Below, one piece after another: positions 57-6,558 of a stretch of 6,558 bases of DNA. This DNA comes from Chlamydiota bacterium (GTDB taxonomy: Bacteria > Auribacterota > JACPWU01). The stretch spans positions 1 through 6,558 of the forward strand of contig JACPWU010000040.1 of the NCBI GenBank assembly GCA_016196885.1, in the 5' to 3' direction. A model generated the notes under the pieces. It was not told the origin of the DNA. It saw only the letters and a program-made list of their open reading frames with translations, and did not search any database. Each line of letters starts with the position of its first letter. Position 1 is the stretch's first letter. The position numbers were made by a program, and so were the translations under genes.

Positions 57-103
57 TGTAGTCGCCCGATTCATCGGGCAGCCCCATAAATGGGGCGACT
101 ACA
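57..103. repeat. REP-like 47-nt double-hairpin palindromic element, copy 1
   Basis: The sequence is TGTAGTCGCCCGATTCATCGGGCAGCCCCATAAATGGGGCGACTACA. An outer stem GTAGTCG/CGACTAC encloses two small hairpins, CCCGA-TTCA-TCGGG and CCCCA-TAAA-TGGGG. An identical copy lies at 2113-2159 and the exact reverse complement at 5080-5126. Confidence 0.85.
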
Positions 104-147
104 AGGGTGATTTTCATCCCCCTTTGTGACTGAAAGTCATGTATGTT

Positions 148-348: not shown

Positions 349-678
349 TCAAGGGCCTACAATATCCAACAATCCTTCAATGATGCGATTAACCTCTTCC
401 TCTCCTAGATTTGAGAGTTTTTGGCCGAGGCGCTTGACGGAAAGGGTTCGGATTTGCCCAATTTTAACCCAAGAAGGTTTTGGCAATTGCTTTTCTTCTA
501 ATTCGTAGGTAAGGGGAAAAGGAATTTTTTGAGGTTGACTGGTAATGGCTAAAACAATCACAAGCTCTGAGCGACTGTTAAACATCTCGTTACTGATGAT
601 GAGTACAGGTCGGTGTCCTGCTTGTTCTCTACCCCTGGTGGGCTCAAGATCTGCCCAATAAATGTCTCCTCTTAGCAT
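349..678 (-). CDS. mazF: PemK/MazF-family type II toxin (sequence-specific endoribonuclease)
   Basis: The 109-aa ORF begins MLRGDIYWADLEPTRGREQAGHRPVLIISN... and continues ...PSWVKIGQIRTLSVKRL, which is the typical PemK/MazF N-terminal and core pattern and size. It has an ATG start at 678-676. Confidence 0.9.
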   Translation of the reverse strand: MLRGDIYWADLEPTRGREQAGHRPVLIISNEMFNSRSELVIVLAITSQPQKIPFPLTYELEEKQLPKPSWVKIGQIRTLSVKRLGQKLSNLGEEEVNRIIEGLLDIVGP

Positions 679-2337: not shown

Positions 2338-3423
2338 GTGAAAAACTTCAAAGGGGGTTTTTTTCTTTTTTATTATTTTTGGTTGCTGATTTTCCTCTTT
2401 ATTTCCCTCCATGATGCCTACCCGATTTCCTTTCGTCTTTATGATGAAGGGGCCAAGGCCCAAGGCCAAGCAGGCGCCTTTACGGCTCAAGCGGATGATG
2501 CCTCTGCGCTTTATTATAATCCAGCCGCGATCACGCAATTGAAGGGGGATCAGGTTTTGTCGGGGACGGAATTTCTCCTTTTGAGTACGGATTATACGAG
2601 TACGAGTGGGGTCGAAGAATCGGACACCAATGATTGGGCGATTGTTCCTCATTTTTATGCGGTGCATCACGTGAATAAGAAGTGGGCGGTGGGCTTTGGG
2701 ACCTATTCTCTTTTTGGTTTGGCGACAGAGTATAGCGACACGGGTGTTTTTCGATATGTCGCGACCAGCTCGGAGTTGAGAACGATGACGATCAGTCCGG
2801 CGATCGCGTATCAAATCCTGCCGCAACTTTCCTTTTCAGCGGGGCCTACATTTATCGTGGGGACTTTGGATTTGAGGAGCAAAGTAGATTTTGGGGCGTT
2901 GGCGGGTTTATCCGGTGCTCTGGATGGGGACTCAAGATTAGCGGGGGATGGAGAGGGGTTTGGATTTCAGGTCAGTTTGCTTTTCGAACCCCATCCACAG
3001 CATCGGTTGGGACTGATGTTCTTGAGCCCTGTGGATTTTGATGTGGATGGCAGTGCCACGGTGTCCAATATTCCCTCCTTTGTGGGGGTTGGTTCTACGG
3101 TGACGGGCGATTTTTCGAGTGAATTAGATTTACCGGCGGTTTTGAGATTTGGCTATGCCTTTTTTCCGACCCATCGCTGGAAAATTGAATTTGATCTGGA
3201 TGGGTCGAATTTTAGTACATTCGAGGATCTTCCCATCACCAGCACCAATCCTTTGGTGGGTTCCCAGAGCGTTCCCAAAAATTATCAAGATGGGTATGTC
3301 TTTGCCTTGGGGACGGAGTATGAATTGAATGAGGATTGGACGGTGCGTTTGGGGTATGGGTATATAAACCTGTCTCTCGCATTCTCTTCTCTGTCCTTGG
3401 GTAAAAACTCCCTCTGGGAATGA
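2338..3423 (+). CDS. FadL/OmpP1/TodX-family outer-membrane hydrophobic-compound transport protein, apparently C-terminally truncated
   Basis: A GTG start is preceded by AAGGGGGG. The N-terminus is a hydrophobic signal-like segment. The family signature AKAQGQAGAFTAQADDASALYYNPAAITQL is present, followed by beta-strand-like alternating pattern. The ORF ends ...WTVRLGYGYINLSLAFSSLSLGKNSLWE*, lacking the last strands and the C-terminal aromatic residue, and its final ~55 nt are repeat-derived. Confidence 0.8.
   Translation: MKNFKGGFFLFYYFWLLIFLFISLHDAYPISFRLYDEGAKAQGQAGAFTAQADDASALYYNPAAITQLKGDQVLSGTEFLLLSTDYTSTSGVEESDTNDWAIVPHFYAVHHVNKKWAVGFGTYSLFGLATEYSDTGVFRYVATSSELRTMTISPAIAYQILPQLSFSAGPTFIVGTLDLRSKVDFGALAGLSGALDGDSRLAGDGEGFGFQVSLLFEPHPQHRLGLMFLSPVDFDVDGSATVSNIPSFVGVGSTVTGDFSSELDLPAVLRFGYAFFPTHRWKIEFDLDGSNFSTFEDLPITSTNPLVGSQSVPKNYQDGYVFALGTEYELNEDWTVRLGYGYINLSLAFSSLSLGKNSLWE
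3369..3403 (+). repeat. fragment of the C-element tail embedded in the 3' end of the FadL-like ORF
   Basis: There is a 15-nt exact match TCTCTGTCCTTGGGT (3389-3403 = 296-310). The upstream flank is also similar (GTCTC..CATTCTCT versus GTCTC..CATTTTCTA). Confidence 0.55.
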
Positions 3424-4384: not shown

Positions 4385-4687
4385 CCTCGCATGGCCTCGG
4401 TCGTGCAACCTTCCCTCCAAAGCGGACTCGGACGCTCTCGCAGTGGAAATTTGATGAGAGATGTGGGTTAACCCGAATAGGTGAGATTTTGATTCAACCC
4501 ATATTTTGCAATAGACGCGAGAACTCAAGAGCAAGAGCTTGAGCCAGACAGGCCTTTGCAGTCCCTGTGGGATTGGCCTGAAGAAAACGTAGGCATACTG
4601 TTCACCAGTATGTCGAGGCTTTCTGAAGGTCAAGATGGCCAAGATGTTGCGTCGAATTCCGCGGCCTATTGCAAATTCTGGGTTCAA
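4385..4687 (+). repeat. C-element copy 2: inverted module A (4385-4459) + structured M/B domain (4493-4687); candidate ncRNA in the tRNA-Thr leader
   Basis: 4493-4645 is identical to 5344-5496 apart from 2 substitutions. The long-range complementary arms CAACCCATATTTTGCAATAGACGCG (4495-4519) and CGCGGCCTATTGCAAATTCTGGGTT (4660-4684) close a ~190-nt domain. That domain contains hairpins CTCAAG..CTTGAG, CAGGCC..GGCCTG (inner TCCC-TGT-GGGA) and CATACTG-TTCAC-CAGTATG. Confidence 0.75.
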
Positions 4688-4706: not shown

Positions 4707-4778
4707 GCTGGCGTAGCTCAACGGTAGAGCACCTGATTTGTAATCAGGCGGTTGCGGGTTCAAATCCCATCGCCAGCT
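4707..4778 (+). tRNA. tRNA-Thr (anticodon UGU), no encoded CCA
   Basis: Manual cloverleaf: acceptor GCTGGCG/CGCCAGC, D arm GCTC-AACGGTA-GAGC, anticodon arm CCTGA-TTTGTAA-TCAGG, T arm GCGGG-TTCAAAT-CCCAT, discriminator T. The T arm has one C-A mismatch and one G-T pair. Confidence 0.9.
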
Positions 4779-4993
4779 AAAATGTCCATGTTTGATGGTT
4801 GCAAAGGAAGTTCAAGGAACTTCTTTTGAGGGCATCAAGAAGGATTTGAACAGGAGGCCCGACCTAATATTAGCCAATCTGCCGGTGGCAGATTGGCTAG
4901 TCCTTGAGAGGGCCGGGAGGCTACCGGAAGACGAGGCCTCGAGGCCGAGTCTGGAGGAGCCAAATCCCATCGCCAGCTAAAATGTCCATGTTT
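4761..4993 (+). mobile_element. T-loop-associated mini-element 1: ~167-nt insert bounded by 33-bp direct repeats of the tRNA-Thr(UGU) 3' part
   Basis: CAAATCCCATCGCCAGCTAAAATGTCCATGTTT occurs at 4761-4793 and again at 4961-4993, exactly 200 bp apart. The repeat starts at T-loop C56. A conserved 109-nt core (4852-4960) contains a perfect 13-bp hairpin, 4871-4883 paired with 4887-4899. Confidence 0.6.
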
Positions 4994-5016: not shown

Positions 5017-5126
5017 AATTTCAATGGCCCTTTTGGGGGGCATCGTGTGCAATGAAAGCTCCACCCGCCTCCCTTATTTTGTAGTCGCCCCATTTATGGG
5101 GCTGCCCGATGAATCGGGCGACTACA
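5017..5126. repeat. REP-like element copy 3 (core 5080-5126, inverted) with conserved upstream flank
   Basis: The core is the exact reverse complement of 57-103 and 2113-2159. The flank 5017-5079 is in the same orientation as 2052-2112. Confidence 0.8.
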
Positions 5127-5343: not shown

Positions 5344-5562
5344 TTCAACCCATATTTTGCAATAGACGCGAGAACTCAAGAGCAAGAGCTTGAGCCAGAC
5401 AGGCCTTTGCAGTCCCTGTGGGATTGGCCTGAAGAAAACGTAGACATACTGTTTACCAGTATGTCGAGGCTTTCTGAAGGTCAAGATGGCCAAGATCTCA
5501 AGCTGTTATAGTCCCTGTGGGATGCGTCGAATTCCGCGGCCTGTTGCAAATTCTGGGTTCAA
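5344..5562 (+). repeat. C-element copy 3 (M/B domain only, with 26-nt internal insertion)
   Basis: It matches 4493-4687. CTCAAGCTGTTATAGTCCCTGTGGGA (5497-5522) replaces the GT at 4646-4647. The insertion repeats AGTCCCTGTGGGA from 5411-5423. Confidence 0.75.
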
Positions 5563-5691: not shown

Positions 5692-5773
5692 GGGCAGGTA
5701 CCAAAGTGGCCAACTGGGCCAGACTGTAAATCTGGTGGCTATGCCTTCGAAGGTTCGAATCCTTCCCTGCCCA
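5692..5773 (+). tRNA. tRNA-Tyr (anticodon GUA), long variable arm, no encoded CCA
   Basis: Acceptor GGGCAGG/CCTGCCC, anticodon arm CCAGA-CTGTAAA-TCTGG, T arm GAAGG-TTCGAAT-CCTTC. The layout parallels E. coli tRNA-Tyr. Confidence 0.93.
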
Positions 5774-5777
5774 AAAA

Positions 5778-5874
5778 GCAGGGTGTAGGGGTTAGGGTGT
5801 AGGGTATAGGGAAATAATGATTTTAATTAAGAACATTATTCCCTACACCCTAACCCCTACACCCTATTCCCTAC
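5778..5874. repeat. G-tract heptad palindrome 1 (long inverted repeat in the tRNA-Tyr/tRNA-Gly spacer)
   Basis: The left arm AGGGTGTAGGGGTTAGGGTGTAGGG (5780-5804) is perfectly complementary to 5841-5865. AATAATG (5813-5819) pairs with CATTATT (5834-5840). The loop is AT-rich and contains TTAATTAA. Confidence 0.85.
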
Positions 5875-5881
5875 TTTTATT

Positions 5882-5952
5882 GCGGGAGTAGCTCAATGGT
5901 AGAGTCCCAGCCTTCCAAGCTGGTCACGCGGGTTCGATTCCCGTCTCCCGCT
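5882..5952 (+). tRNA. tRNA-Gly (anticodon UCC), no encoded CCA
   Basis: Acceptor GCGGGAG/CTCCCGC, anticodon arm CCAGC-CTTCCAA-GCTGG, T arm GCGGG-TTCGATT-CCCGT. Confidence 0.93.
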
Positions 5953-5973
5953 CAAGGCAGAGCTTATATAAAA

Positions 5974-6080
5974 GCAGGGTGTAGGGGTTAGGGTGTAGGG
6001 TATGGGGAAATAATGAAAATAATGATTTTAATTAAGAACATTATTCCCTGCACCCTAACCCCTACACCCTATACCCTGCA
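5974..6080. repeat. G-tract heptad palindrome 2 (tRNA-Gly/tRNA-Thr spacer)
   Basis: The same 25-nt left arm (5976-6000) pairs with 6046-6070 with a single mismatch. A 9-nt tandem duplication (AAAATAATG) is present relative to copy 1. Confidence 0.85.
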
Positions 6081-6086
6081 TTTATA

Positions 6087-6159
6087 GCCGAGATAGCTCA
6101 GCTGGCAGAGCACGTCCTTGGTAAGGACGAGGTCACGGGTTCGATTCCCGTTCTCGGCT
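6087..6159 (+). tRNA. tRNA-Thr (anticodon GGU), no encoded CCA
   Basis: Acceptor GCCGAGA/TCTCGGC, D arm GCTC-AGCTGGCA-GAGC, anticodon arm CGTCC-TTGGTAA-GGACG, T arm ACGGG-TTCGATT-CCCGT. Confidence 0.93.
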
Positions 6160-6368
6160 CGTGATGAAAAGCTTAAAGGAATTAGTAAATTTAAGTCGGG
6201 TTCAGGTCTATAAGGTTTATGCAAGGGAATCGAATAGGAGGCCCGACTTATATTAGCAAATCATGCAGTGCATGATTTGCAATTCCTTAAGAGGGCCGGG
6301 TGGCCGACCGGAAGACGAGGCCTCAAGGCCGAGTCTGTAGGCGCCGATTCCCGTTCTCGGCTCGTGAT
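6142..6368 (+). mobile_element. T-loop-associated mini-element 2: ~179-nt insert bounded by 24-bp direct repeats of the tRNA-Thr(GGU) 3' part
   Basis: CGATTCCCGTTCTCGGCTCGTGAT occurs at 6142-6165 and again at 6345-6368. The repeat again starts at T-loop C56. The 109-nt core (6236-6344) is homologous to 4852-4960, with an 11-bp hairpin 6256-6266 paired with 6270-6280. Confidence 0.6.
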
Positions 6369-6418
6369 CAAATGCAGTGTTAAGCACTATTAACTGGTTT
6401 TAATGGGAGAAAAATTTC

Positions 6419-6558
6419 ATGGCCAAAGAGAAATTTGACAGAAAGAAGCCACACGTCAACATTGGAACGATCGGGCACGTAGATCATGGAAAAACGACCT
6501 TAACGAGCGCCATCACAAAAGTCCTATCGAAGAAGGGACTCGCACAGGCGAAAAGCTA
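6419..6558 (+). CDS. tuf: Elongation factor Tu, N-terminal fragment (continues beyond the window)
   Basis: It translates to [46 protein letters not shown] with the G1 motif GHVDHGKT. An RBS GGGAGA lies 8 nt upstream. Its position after a Thr-Tyr-Gly-Thr tRNA set matches the classical tufB context. Confidence 0.97.

What the first reader, a model, noticed from the sequence alone, without database searches (positions are those of the whole stretch)
4761..4993. Mini-element inserted at the T-loop of tRNA-Thr(UGU), flanked by a 33-bp duplication of the tRNA 3' part
- The tRNA segment from C56 through the acceptor 3' strand, plus 15 nt of downstream spacer, is repeated exactly 200 bp later.
- Between the repeats lie about 167 nt with no credible gene.
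- This interval contains a 7-bp hairpin followed by a T-run (4807-4823), a perfect 13-bp hairpin (4871-4899), and the nested stems CCGG..CCGG and AGAC-(GGCC-TCGA-GGCC)-GTCT.
- Direct repeats of a tRNA 3' part beginning in the T-loop are the hallmark of tyrosine-integrase attL/attR sites.
- The interior is about the size of bare attP arms. This would make it a CIME-like, integrase-less relic that could still be mobilised in trans, or a new kind of tRNA-targeting miniature element.
- It could also be processed out as a structured 3'-trailer RNA.
Basis: partly seen in the sequence, partly recalled or inferred. Interest (0 to 1): 0.8.

Follow-up and report, generated by a model that had tools for sequence, protein, structure and literature searches.

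The report
tRNA-linked structured RNA module
Behind each of two threonine tRNA genes sits a small folded non-coding module that ends in a second copy of that tRNA's own tail, the same puzzling build as the "tRNA-linked repeats" known from E. coli since 1978, and it appears to be common in bacteria and archaea.

Summary
A 33-nt exact direct repeat (4761-4793 / 4961-4993) starts at C56 of tRNA-Thr(UGU) and brackets 167 nt with no conserved ORF.

It is not a one-off. A homologous unit follows tRNA-Thr(GGU) at 6142-6375, and its terminal copy matches that tRNA instead. A third homolog lies after a tRNA-Met in another MAG that is probably Omnitrophota (L090).

The three cores share a fold: 35 pairs, all paired, 12 with compensatory changes. 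The closing helix joins an "anti-T-loop" segment to the start of the copied tRNA tail, so both arms are tailored to the local tRNA.

The nearest relatives available have identical tRNAs and no unit after either tRNA-Thr.

No integrase, TnpB, Cas or RT gene is in the window. Only 1 of 72 ORFs next to analogous units elsewhere is an integrase.

The build matches E. coli tRNA-linked repeats (RtT, RrA/B/F), but there is no sequence homology and no Rfam hit.

A scan for "T-loop, then inverted T-loop" hit its 120-locus limit. In 57 of 81 testable cases a further direct copy of the tRNA tail followed, against 0 of 81 after shuffling.

Verdict: a TLR-like structured trailer RNA module, a new variant of a known but unexplained kind. 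How it spreads is unresolved. The integrase/CIME reading is not supported.

The parts
4707..4778 (+). tRNA-Thr(UGU), intact, no encoded CCA
   Evidence: ARAGORN. Rfam tRNA 69.7 bits. Identical to the gene in relative L020.
4761..4793 (+). Unit 1, proximal copy of the repeat: tRNA C56 to 3' end (18 nt) plus 15 nt of trailer
   Evidence: the repeat finder D14, 100% identity.
4794..4841 (+). Unit 1, variable 5' spacer holding a weak terminator-like hairpin (GAAGTTC-AAG-GAACTTC, 4807-4823) and TTTT (4824-4827)
   Evidence: Read from the sequence. Not alignable to unit 2. No significant similarity to the native spacer of L020. It fails the terminator scan because the T-run has only 4 T.
4842..4851 (+). 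Unit 1 anti-T-loop, GGATTTGAAC: reverse complement of tRNA 4758-4767. It is the 5' strand of closing helix P0, which pairs with 4961-4967
   Evidence: RNAalifold. Occurs only once in the window. Compensatory changes relative to unit 2 (helix 1).
4852..4960 (+). Unit 1 conserved core. P1 4856-4860/4910-4914. P2 hairpin 4871-4883/4887-4899. P3 4919-4921/4959-4961 plus 4924-4925/4956-4957. P4 4929-4932/4949-4952. P5 4935-4938/4943-4946
   Evidence: Folding z-score -4.5. Consensus structure. Covariation across three homologs. No Rfam hit at E<=1.
4961..4993 (+). Unit 1, distal copy of the tRNA 3' part plus trailer. The first 7 nt are the 3' strand of P0; the rest is a free tail
   Evidence: the repeat finder D14. 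RNAalifold.
6087..6160 (+). tRNA-Thr(GGU), intact
   Evidence: ARAGORN and Rfam. Identical to the gene in L020.
6142..6172 (+). Unit 2, proximal copy: tRNA C56 to 3' end (19 nt) plus 12 nt of trailer
   Evidence: the repeat finder D15, 94% identity.
6225..6234 (+). Unit 2 anti-T-loop, GGGAATCGAA: reverse complement of tRNA 6139-6148. GGGAAUCG pairs with CGAUUCCC at 6345-6352
6235..6344 (+). Unit 2 conserved core, homologous to 4852-4960. P1 6240-6244/6293-6297. P2 6256-6266/6270-6280. P3 6302-6304/6343-6345. P4 6313-6316/6333-6336. P5 6319-6322/6327-6330
   Evidence: the repeat finder D6 and D9. Alignment. Folding z-score -3.9. Model R1 scores it 167 bits, though it is one of the two sequences the model was built from.
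6345..6375 (+). Unit 2, distal copy of the tRNA-Thr(GGU) 3' part plus trailer (first 24 nt exact). It lies 44 nt upstream of the tuf start codon at 6419
   Evidence: the repeat finder D15. Sequence.

Best explanation
The feature is one of two paralogous tRNA-linked-repeat (TLR)-like modules in the thrU-tyrU-glyT-thrT-tuf cluster.

Each module has three parts:
- A poorly conserved spacer of about 50 nt follows the tRNA. In unit 1 it holds a leaky-terminator-like hairpin.
- A core of about 120 nt follows. It has two branches (P1/P2 and P3-P5) closed by helix P0.
- A second copy of the tRNA's own 3' part plus trailer ends the module.

The 5' strand of P0 is antisense to the local T-loop. Its 3' strand is the first 7-8 nt of the copied tail.

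Proposed working:
- The module is transcribed on the tRNA strand as part of the tRNA (unit 1) or tRNA-tuf (unit 2) precursor.
- Endonucleolytic 3' maturation of the tRNA frees the module's 5' side.
- The core folds, with P0 sequestering the T-loop-derived nucleotides.
- The duplicated acceptor 3' strand and trailer re-create the same processing context at the module's 3' side.
- A discrete structured RNA is therefore released, and the downstream RNA (the tuf leader for unit 2) keeps its usual 5' context.
- This would make the insertion neutral for tRNA and tuf expression.

It is not an integrase att relic.

Shown:
- the anatomy;
- the paralogy and one homolog in another genome;
- the covariation;
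- the locus-matched arms;
- absence from relatives;
- absence of associated genes;
- the same build in E. coli TLRs and in many other genomes.

Inferred:
- transcription and processing;
- any role of the released RNA;
- the way new copies arise.

The most likely route is repeated insertion at the tRNA 3' part, duplicating it, by an unidentified mechanism.
For: Anatomy and paralogy:
- Two homologous units follow two different tRNA-Thr genes. Each ends in a copy of its own tRNA tail starting exactly at C56.

Third homolog:
- Covariance model R1 finds L090 3327-3495 at 37.7 bits, E 7e-8.
- It lies after an intron-containing tRNA-Met.
- Its own anti-T-loop is GGCAGGATTTGAAC and its own tail copy is CAAATCCTGCCCCCGCTACCA.
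- One terminator precedes it and one follows.

Structure:
- Folding z-scores are -4.5, -3.9 and -5.5.
- On the three sequences, 35 of 35 pairs are kept and 12 pairs show changes on both sides.
- With the 3' partners slid by 1-3 columns, only 22-45% of cells pair and none show compensatory change.
- P0 co-varies with the tRNA: UA to AU and UA to CG.

Not coding: the ORF is not conserved.

Insertion status:
- L020 has the same synteny and identical tRNA-Thr(UGU) and (GGU) genes but no unit.
- Relatives with 90-92% EF-Tu identity have tuf 70-95 nt after tRNA-Thr(GGU).

Co-transcription of unit 2:
- It sits between tRNA-Thr(GGU) and tuf.
- No promoter-like site was found between them.

Precedent:
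- E. coli has 22 TLRs at 10 loci. [quoted passage not shown]
- The authors propose that this repeat is the RNase E processing signal.
- rrB lies between terminators T1 and T2 (PMC8144298).
- The Rfam RtT consensus closes with GgGaaGG paired to the tRNA-derived CCuuCcC.

Generality:
- The architecture scan reached its 120-locus limit.
- 73 of 95 tRNA-anchored hits carry a direct tail copy.
- With controls, the counts are 57 of 81 on the same strand, 6 of 81 on the opposite strand, 6 of 75 upstream and 0 of 81 after shuffling.
- Unselected tRNAs with other T-loops show matched arms as well.
- The neighbouring genes are ordinary housekeeping genes.
Against: - There is no expression or processing data. 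The organism is an uncultured MAG.
- Only three homologs of this core were found, and the alignment used for covariation was fitted to the model.
- The core was not found by pattern scans of genome, metagenome or viral collections. Its copy number in the source genome is unknown.
- Rfam RtT does not match, so kinship with the E. coli TLRs is architectural only.
- The free tail does not form an acceptor stem. RNase Z, the expected enzyme for CCA-less tRNAs, would probably not recognise it. The processing step is therefore borrowed from the E. coli RNase E proposal.
- Conserved hairpins could equally act in single-stranded DNA.
- GGA motifs are not enriched. The one function proposed for any TLR, CsrA binding, gains no support here.
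Confidence: 0.55

Rival explanations
1. It is a non-autonomous DNA element with a new kind of insertion chemistry. It targets the T-loop or 3' part of tRNA genes and duplicates 20-35 bp of target at each insertion. This would resemble a very long target-site duplication or a Cas1/casposase-type staggered integration. The conserved fold would serve the insertion machinery, in DNA or RNA form, rather than the host. This rival concerns how the module spreads and is compatible with the best explanation of what it is.
For: - Homologous cores sit at three different tRNA species, each with locally derived flanks.
- Relatives have empty sites.
- The repeats start at the same tRNA position, C56, and have similar lengths (33, 31 and 21 nt).
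- In Halobacterium L104, two different interiors lie in series. Each is followed by the tRNA-Met tail, as expected from successive insertions rather than unequal crossing-over.
- 9 loci carry arrays.
Against: - No known transposase makes 20-35-bp duplications together with an inverted copy of the target.
- No associated protein was found in the window or next to 72 analogous units.
- The core has no terminal inverted repeats of its own.
- Across the wider class the left edge of the duplication varies from G52 to C62. That argues against one precise cleavage site.
- No copy was seen away from a tRNA.
Confidence: 0.18
2. It is a relic or trans-mobilisable mini-element of a tyrosine-integrase system. 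The two 33-bp repeats would be attL and attR, and the interior would be what is left of the attP arms (CIME-like).
For: - Direct repeats of a tRNA 3' part that begin in the T-loop are typical of integrated elements. The literature ascribes partial tRNA copies to such integrations (PMC9897764).
- Units in series (L104) resemble tandem accretion at an att site.
- Relatives have empty sites.
Against: - The interior is 167 nt, and it is conserved as a fold with compensatory changes.
- One core family serves three tRNAs with unrelated acceptor strands. In the window units, trailers specific to the host locus are included in the repeats.
- The anti-T-loop arm changes with the tRNA.
- No dyad of core sites surrounds the junction (by eye).
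- There is no integrase in the window, and only 1 of 72 beside analogous units.
- The known cases are 9-120 kb.
Confidence: 0.1
3. It is a by-product of DNA rearrangement with no function of its own. Snap-back or template-switch replication at the T-arm and terminator palindromes would create an inverted and then a direct copy of the tRNA 3' part. This is a small tandem-inversion duplication; the mechanism is cited from memory of the Salmonella literature. The interior would be filler that later diverged.
For: - Some units elsewhere are near-perfect long palindromes centred on the terminator loop, for example L065, L072 and L103.
- Some have almost no interior, only 7-19 nt.
- The interval between the tRNA and the inverted copy is more self-complementary than shuffles across 97 loci: median 0.68 against 0.56.
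Against: - In the window the same interval is no more palindromic than shuffles: 0.59 and 0.55 against 0.56.
- The core is conserved between loci and between genomes, with compensatory substitutions. Random filler would not be.
- The anti-T-loop lies 21 nt closer to the hairpin centre than a symmetric palindrome predicts.
Confidence: 0.1
4. It is a guide RNA for an RNA-guided DNA-binding protein of the TnpB/Cas12k type, like the delocalised crRNA that homes CRISPR-associated transposons to tRNA genes. The core would be the scaffold and the distal copy the guide. The target would be the tRNA gene, directly after a 5' GGTT motif.
For: - Formally, a scaffold of about 110 nt is followed by 24-33 nt identical to a DNA target. 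In both units that target starts directly after GGTT, a Cas12k/TnpB-like 5' motif.
- The mismatches in unit 2 are at guide positions 25 and 29, the distal end.
- Type V-K CASTs do home to tRNA genes with a delocalised crRNA (PMC11656645).
Against: - The first 7-8 nt of the would-be guide, the seed, are base-paired in P0, with covariation.
- There is no nuclease or transposase gene in the window or beside analogous units.
- No omega-RNA or crRNA family matches in Rfam.
- GGTT is simply the universal T-loop sequence.
- In the wider class the copy starts anywhere from G52 to C62.
Confidence: 0.03

Closest known systems
E. coli tRNA-linked repeats (TLRs): RtT RNA of the tyrT operon (Rfam RF00391) and RrA/RrB/RrF of rrnA/B/D (Egan & Landy 1978 and Rudd 1999, as cited in PMC8144298)
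   Same: - It lies directly downstream of a stable-RNA gene on the same strand.
- A homologous core recurs at different loci.
- The 3' end of each unit is identical to the 3' end of its own upstream gene: 18-19 bp in E. coli, and 18-19 nt of tRNA here.
- In rrB a terminator lies between the stable-RNA gene (5S rRNA) and the unit, as in L090 and, weakly, in unit 1.
- The 18-bp rrB repeat overlaps the 5S 3' end. By my recollection of that sequence it also takes in a few trailer nucleotides, as the window units do.
- A closing helix uses the tRNA-derived 3' segment (RtT consensus; P0 here).
- The function is unknown.
   Different: - No sequence or covariance-model similarity: RtT gives no hit at E<=1.
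- A different phylum, probably Omnitrophota rather than Enterobacterales.
- The repeat extends 12-15 nt into the trailer, because CCA is not encoded.
- There is a single unit per tRNA rather than an array.
- The closing helix uses T-loop nucleotides 56-62. In RtT it uses the T-stem and acceptor nucleotides.
attL/attR duplications of tRNA 3' parts made by tyrosine integrases (prophages, ICEs, genomic islands, CIMEs)
   Same: - A direct repeat of a tRNA 3' part that begins in the T-loop.
- An intact tRNA at the proximal copy.
- The insertion is absent from relatives.
   Different: - The interior is 167 nt instead of kilobases.
- No integrase is present.
- The interior is a conserved fold.
- One core family is matched to three different tRNAs and, in the window units, to their trailers.
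- There is an extra inverted T-loop copy.
3'ETS-leuZ and other sRNAs cut from tRNA precursors
   Same: It would be a small RNA derived from a tRNA operon trailer and released by the tRNA processing machinery.
   Different: 3'ETS-leuZ is a short native trailer that acts as a base-pairing sponge. It has no duplicated tRNA tail, no closing helix and no paralogs at other tRNAs.
Delocalised crRNA of type V-K CRISPR-associated transposons; TnpB omega-RNAs
   Same: A structured RNA is followed by a segment identical to a tRNA gene next to a 5' GTT-type motif.
   Different: - No Cas12k, TnpB or Tns genes are present.
- The seed is paired.
- The unit lies 200 nt from its own "target".
- No Rfam match.

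Membership tests
tRNA-linked repeats (TLR, E. coli type) | Lies immediately downstream of a tRNA or rRNA gene, on the same strand, inside the operon | tested here: met
   Unit 1 starts at the 3' end of tRNA-Thr(UGU). Unit 2 lies between tRNA-Thr(GGU) and tuf.
tRNA-linked repeats (TLR, E. coli type) | The 3' end of the unit is identical to the 3' end of the stable-RNA gene just upstream (18-19 bp) | tested here: met
   18 nt of tRNA plus 15 nt of trailer in unit 1, and 19 plus 12 nt in unit 2. 21 nt including CCA in L090.
tRNA-linked repeats (TLR, E. coli type) | A homologous core at several loci, each with the tail of its own upstream gene | tested here: met
   Units 1 and 2 are 76-81% identical in the core and have different tails. 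L090 follows a tRNA-Met.
tRNA-linked repeats (TLR, E. coli type) | A closing helix between the unit's 5' part and the tRNA-derived 3' segment (Rfam RtT consensus) | tested here: met
   RtT consensus structure. P0 in RNAalifold and in the pair counts, with 2 compensatory pairs.
tRNA-linked repeats (TLR, E. coli type) | Sequence and structure homology to Rfam RF00391 (RtT) | tested here: not met
   cmscan at E<=1 gives no RtT match on the window. The same model scores 133-138 bits on the E. coli tyrT locus.
tRNA-linked repeats (TLR, E. coli type) | Transcribed with the operon and processed to a discrete RNA | not testable with these tools
   No transcript data. Only orientation and the lack of a promoter-like site between tRNA-Thr(GGU) and tuf.
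Integrase att sites / CIME | Direct repeats made of the tRNA 3' part at both ends | tested here: met
Integrase att sites / CIME | A cognate tyrosine (or serine) integrase inside, adjacent to, or elsewhere in the genome | tested here: inconclusive
   None among the window proteins. 1 of 72 beside analogous units. The rest of the source genome could not be searched.
Integrase att sites / CIME | Inverted core-type sites around a 6-8-bp overlap at both junctions, and an element-borne tail that differs from or is independent of host flanks | tested here: not met
   The distal junctions are GAGC|CAAATCC and GCGC|CGATTCC, with no dyad (judged by eye only). The repeats include trailers specific to the host locus and differ between the two units.
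TnpB/Cas12-type guide RNA | A scaffold followed by a free 3' guide matching DNA next to a 5' TAM/PAM | tested here: not met
   The match and GGTT are present. However, the first 7-8 guide nucleotides are paired in P0, with covariation.
TnpB/Cas12-type guide RNA | An adjacent or associated nuclease gene, or a known omega-RNA/crRNA family | tested here: not met
   Pfam scan of the window ORFs. 72 neighbouring ORFs elsewhere. Rfam.
MITE | Fixed terminal inverted repeats, a short target-site duplication, and many dispersed copies | tested here: not met
   The inverted arms are 7-10 nt and change with the local tRNA. The duplication is 31-33 bp. Copies were seen only after tRNAs.

The most novel reading that the evidence does not exclude
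The window units would be members of a widespread, unrecognised class of small insertions in Bacteria and Archaea. These would settle behind tRNA genes, copy the tRNA 3' part once in inverted and once in direct orientation, and so build a closing helix tailored to each host tRNA. That would imply an unknown insertion or copying mechanism that reads the tRNA gene or its transcript, whether hairpin-templated, tRNA-primed or RNA-mediated. It would also give the first general explanation of the E. coli TLRs.
Probability: 0.3. Interest if true: 0.85.

Novelty: new variant of a known kind. Interest (0 to 1): 0.6.

Why it matters
- tRNA-linked repeats were described in E. coli in 1978 and still lack a known function or origin. 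In the searchable literature they have been treated as an enterobacterial curiosity.
- A non-homologous family with the same build occurs in a distant, uncultured phylum, and its fold is supported by covariation.
- The same three-part layout (tRNA, inverted T-loop, direct tail copy) follows many tRNA species in Halobacteria, Clostridia, Spirochaetes, Patescibacteria, Actinomycetota and others.
- The puzzle therefore becomes a comparative-genomics problem. One can now ask what generates locus-matched arms, whether the RNAs are released, and whether they matter for tRNA or tuf expression.
- There is also a practical point. Short partial tRNA copies near tRNA genes are usually read as att sites of integrated elements. 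Many of them may be this instead.

Tried and rejected
Searches for more copies of the core:
- Exact or degenerate core patterns gave 0 hits in genome contigs.
- They gave 18 hits in metagenome contigs. All were TetR-like coding sequence in high-GC bacteria and irrelevant.
- They gave 0 and 2 random hits in viral contigs.
- BLAST against plasmids and phages found nothing.
- A looser family pattern in viral contigs gave 120 hits. The covariance model scored none of the 100 screened.

Other lines that led nowhere:
- NUDIX-based synteny look-ups (P0004, P0008, P0009) reached loci without the tRNA cluster.
- Guide-RNA idea (GGTT as PAM): dropped once P0 was seen to pair the seed and no nuclease gene appeared.
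- CsrA-sponge idea, borrowed from RrB: GGA motifs number 6, 3 and 6, no more than in dinucleotide shuffles.
- Small-protein idea: the 62-aa ORF is not conserved in unit 2.
- Integron attC idea: the AAC...GTT boxes resemble R''/R', but the distal junction lacks GTT, and the same build occurs in archaea.
- Snap-back palindrome origin: not supported for the window.
- Alignment of the variable spacers with the native spacers of L020 could not fix the exact insertion borders; scores fell within the shuffle range.
- Whether the acceptor 3' strand of the distal copy pairs with the variable 5' spacer: only weak matches by eye, not pursued.
Full report
**1. The observation**

tRNA-Thr(UGU) lies at 4707-4778. 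The 33-nt string CAAATCCCATCGCCAGCTAAAATGTCCATGTTT occurs exactly twice, at 4761-4793 and 4961-4993 (family D14). The first copy runs from C56 of the tRNA through its 3' end and 15 nt of trailer.

The only long ORF across the interval (4792-4980) is disrupted by indels in the paralogous copy.

**2.

The window holds the classical thrU-tyrU-glyT-thrT-tuf cluster:
- tRNA-Thr(UGU) at 4707
- tRNA-Tyr at 5692
- tRNA-Gly at 5882
- tRNA-Thr(GGU) at 6087
- the EF-Tu start codon at 6419

A second unit follows tRNA-Thr(GGU).
- A 31-nt repeat lies at 6142-6172 / 6345-6375. It again begins at C56, and its first 24 nt are exact.
- It brackets an interior whose last ~110 nt are 76-81% identical to 4850-4960 (families D6, D9, D15).

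The terminal copy of each unit matches its own tRNA and its own trailer, not those of the other unit.

**3. Structure**

RNAalifold on the two units gives a two-branch fold closed by helix P0.
- In unit 1, P0 pairs GGAUUUG (4842-4848) with CAAAUCC (4961-4967).
- In unit 2, it pairs GGGAAUCG (6225-6232) with CGAUUCCC (6345-6352).

The 3' strand of P0 is thus the beginning of the copied tRNA tail. The 5' strand is a 10-nt inverted copy of the local T-loop. Where the two T-loops differ, both strands differ in a compensating way.

The long hairpin P2 also shows four compensatory pairs. Folding energies lie well below shuffles, with z-scores of -4.5 and -3.9.

**4. A third homolog**

A covariance model built from the two units finds L090 3327-3495 at 37.7 bits, E 7e-8. 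L090 is a MAG contig whose HemQ-like protein is closest to Omnitrophota proteins.

The L090 unit follows an intron-containing tRNA-Met and a terminator. Its own anti-T-loop is GGCAGGATTTGAAC. Its own tail copy is CAAATCCTGCCCCCGCTACCA, from C56 to CCA. A second terminator follows (z-score -5.5).

On the three sequences, all 35 modelled pairs are kept, and 12 have changes on both sides. With the 3' partners slid by 1-3 columns, only 22-45% of cells pair and none show compensatory change. Two caveats apply: there are only three sequences, and the alignment was fitted to the model.

**5. Source and relatives**

The window equals contig JACOUD010000013.1 of MAG GCA_016178005.1 (L023) at 100% identity, apart from one 239-nt segment that the window lacks. 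The best named protein hits are labelled "Chlamydiae bacterium" or Omnitrophota.

The closest genome with the same gene order is L020, whose NUDIX protein is 58% identical. It has identical tRNA-Thr(UGU) and tRNA-Thr(GGU) genes and no unit after either. Metagenomic relatives with 90-92% identical EF-Tu have tuf 70-95 nt after tRNA-Thr(GGU).

So the units are insertions, or were lost in every relative available. Those relatives are too distant to fix the exact borders.

**6. What it is not linked to**

The window ORFs are:
- a MazF toxin
- a response regulator with an HD domain
- a FadL-like outer-membrane protein
- a second response regulator
- a NUDIX hydrolase

There is no integrase, transposase, TnpB, Cas protein or reverse transcriptase. 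Rfam gives nothing on the units at E<=1. Pattern and BLAST searches for the core in genome, metagenome, viral, plasmid and phage collections found no further copy.

**7. The precedent**

E. coli K-12 has 22 "tRNA-linked repeats" at ten tRNA or rRNA loci. In each, 18-19 bp at the 3' end are identical to the 3' end of the gene just upstream. Their function is unknown.

For rrB, which lies between terminators T1 and T2 of rrnB, the authors propose that the repeat serves as the RNase E processing signal (PMC8144298).

At the tyrT locus, Rfam RtT matches four units. Each ends in AATCCTTCCCCCACCACCA, and the consensus structure closes by pairing GgGaaGG with the tRNA-derived CCuuCcC.

That is the same design as the window units: spacer, closing strand antisense to the tail, structured interior, tail copy. 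The RtT model does not match the window, so the resemblance is one of architecture, not of sequence family.

**8. How general is the design?**

I spent the last genome scan on the layout itself: GGTTCAAATCC, then 60-90 nt, then GGATTTGAAC. It reached its 120-locus limit.

- 103 matches begin in a predicted tRNA. In 6 of them the inverted copy lies in a convergent tRNA. Of the 97 remaining units, 95 could be scored for a tail copy.
- 73 of the 95 scorable units carry a direct copy of the tRNA's own 3' part within 350 nt.
- With controls at a local alignment score of at least 13, the counts are 57 of 81 downstream on the same strand, 6 of 81 on the opposite strand, 6 of 75 upstream and 0 of 81 after shuffling.
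- The copy starts anywhere from G52 to C62. C56 and A57 are common in bacteria, and G52 in haloarchaea.
- Interiors are 7-283 nt long, GC- and purine-rich, and fall into lineage-specific families.
- Nine loci carry arrays.

Hosts include isolates with complete genomes (Halorarius, Halosimplex, Halobellus, Halovalidus). They also include other cultured strains (Faecalibacterium langellae, Nocardioides) and many MAGs of Clostridia, Spirochaetes, Patescibacteria, Acidobacteriota and others.

Other tRNAs in the same loci were not selected by the pattern and have different T-loops. They show the same build with matched arms: L091 tRNA-Gly, L107 tRNA-Arg and L163 tRNA-Thr(GGU).

Rfam knows none of these interiors. 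The nearest ORFs are ordinary genes, and 1 of 72 is an integrase. The layout is rare in viral contigs, with 3 hits.

**9. Mechanism**

I commit to a TLR-like, co-transcribed structured RNA module.
- For unit 2, co-transcription is hard to avoid. The unit sits between tRNA-Thr(GGU) and tuf with no promoter-like site between them.
- The duplicated tail plus trailer would let the same endonucleolytic step that matures the tRNA also cut at the module's 3' side. A folded RNA would be released, and the tuf leader or downstream precursor would be unchanged.
- This step is inferred from the E. coli proposal. It has not been shown here.

How new units arise is open.
- Successive insertions are favoured. 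Homologous cores sit at three tRNA species, and in Halobacterium L104 two different interiors lie in series.
- Unequal crossing-over can explain arrays, but not these two facts.
- A snap-back palindrome origin fits some loci elsewhere but not the window.
- The locus-matched 5' arm requires either selection for pairing or templating from the hairpin partner.

**10. Rivals**

- The integrase att/CIME reading fails on several counts: a tail tailored to three tRNAs, trailer identity in the window units, a conserved fold, junction anatomy and the lack of integrases.
- The guide-RNA reading (GGTT plus a 24-33-nt match) fails because the seed is paired and no effector gene is present.
- A MITE reading fails on variable arms and the length of the duplication.
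- A CsrA-sponge role is not supported, because GGA motifs are not enriched.

**11. Verdict**

The feature is real and more extensive than reported. It is best filed as a new, non-homologous variant of the tRNA-linked-repeat kind, with evidence that this kind is widespread. The function of the RNA and the mechanism of spread remain unknown.

Noticed in passing
window 3365 (L023 4234-4473; L019 1210-1449): The window lacks 239 nt that are present at this point in the public contig of the same MAG and in Logan contigs. The missing stretch encodes the C-terminal part of the FadL-like outer-membrane protein. As a result, the window ORF 2338-3423 is truncated and runs into the response-regulator gene.
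   Followed up: partly
L023 about 1041, equal to the window end at 6558: The tuf reading frame in the MAG contig shifts by one base just at the window's end: ...GCGAAAAGCTA|GAAATAGAC, where AKSYEIDNAPEEK is expected. This is either an assembly error or a real frameshift.
   Followed up: partly
window 57-104, 2112-2159, 5079-5126; further copies in L023: A 48-nt double-hairpin repeat, TGTAGTCGCCCGATTCATCGGGCAGCCCCATAAATGGGGCGACTACA, occurs in both orientations. The copy at 5041-5126 shares an additional 38 nt with 2074-2159. It looks like a small dispersed palindromic repeat family (REP- or MITE-like).
   Followed up: no
window 4493-4687 and 5344-5562; partial copy at 232-278: A ~195-219-nt repeat (99% identical over 153 nt) with internal inverted arms lies just upstream of tRNA-Thr(UGU) and again upstream of tRNA-Tyr. 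The Logan contigs break inside it. It is absent from L020.
   Followed up: no
window 5774-5870 and 5970-6075: The spacers after tRNA-Tyr and tRNA-Gly are long near-perfect palindromes (AGGGTGTAGGGGTTAGGGTGTAGGG...CCCTACACCCTAACCCCTACACCCT), 93% alike. L020 has hairpin-forming spacers of unrelated sequence at the same places. They may be processing stems. Rfam miRNA matches there are sub-threshold noise.
   Followed up: no
L090 about 2400-3230: The tRNA-Met upstream of the homologous unit appears to be interrupted in the anticodon loop by a group I-like intron. The intron carries a PD-(D/E)XK endonuclease ORF (2559-3029, Pfam PDDEXK_5, E 3e-42). ARAGORN does not call this tRNA.
   Followed up: partly
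L104 (Halobacterium sp. CBA1126), downstream of tRNA-Met 2916-2991: Two units with different interiors follow one another. Each has its own inverted T-loop and a fresh copy of the tRNA-Met 3' part. The second interior (CTGGAAGTCGCA...GTCCGTCTTCCTCC) belongs to a family also seen after tRNA-Ala, Asp, Phe and Ser in other haloarchaea (L054, L106, L158, L071, L164).
   Followed up: partly
L065, L072, L103: In some bacteria the inverted copy covers the whole tRNA 3' part up to CCA. Together with the terminator it forms a perfect palindrome with arms of about 40 nt, centred on the terminator loop.
   Followed up: partly
window 349-678 (-): A MazF/PemK toxin gene with no obvious antitoxin ORF called next to it.
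   Followed up: no
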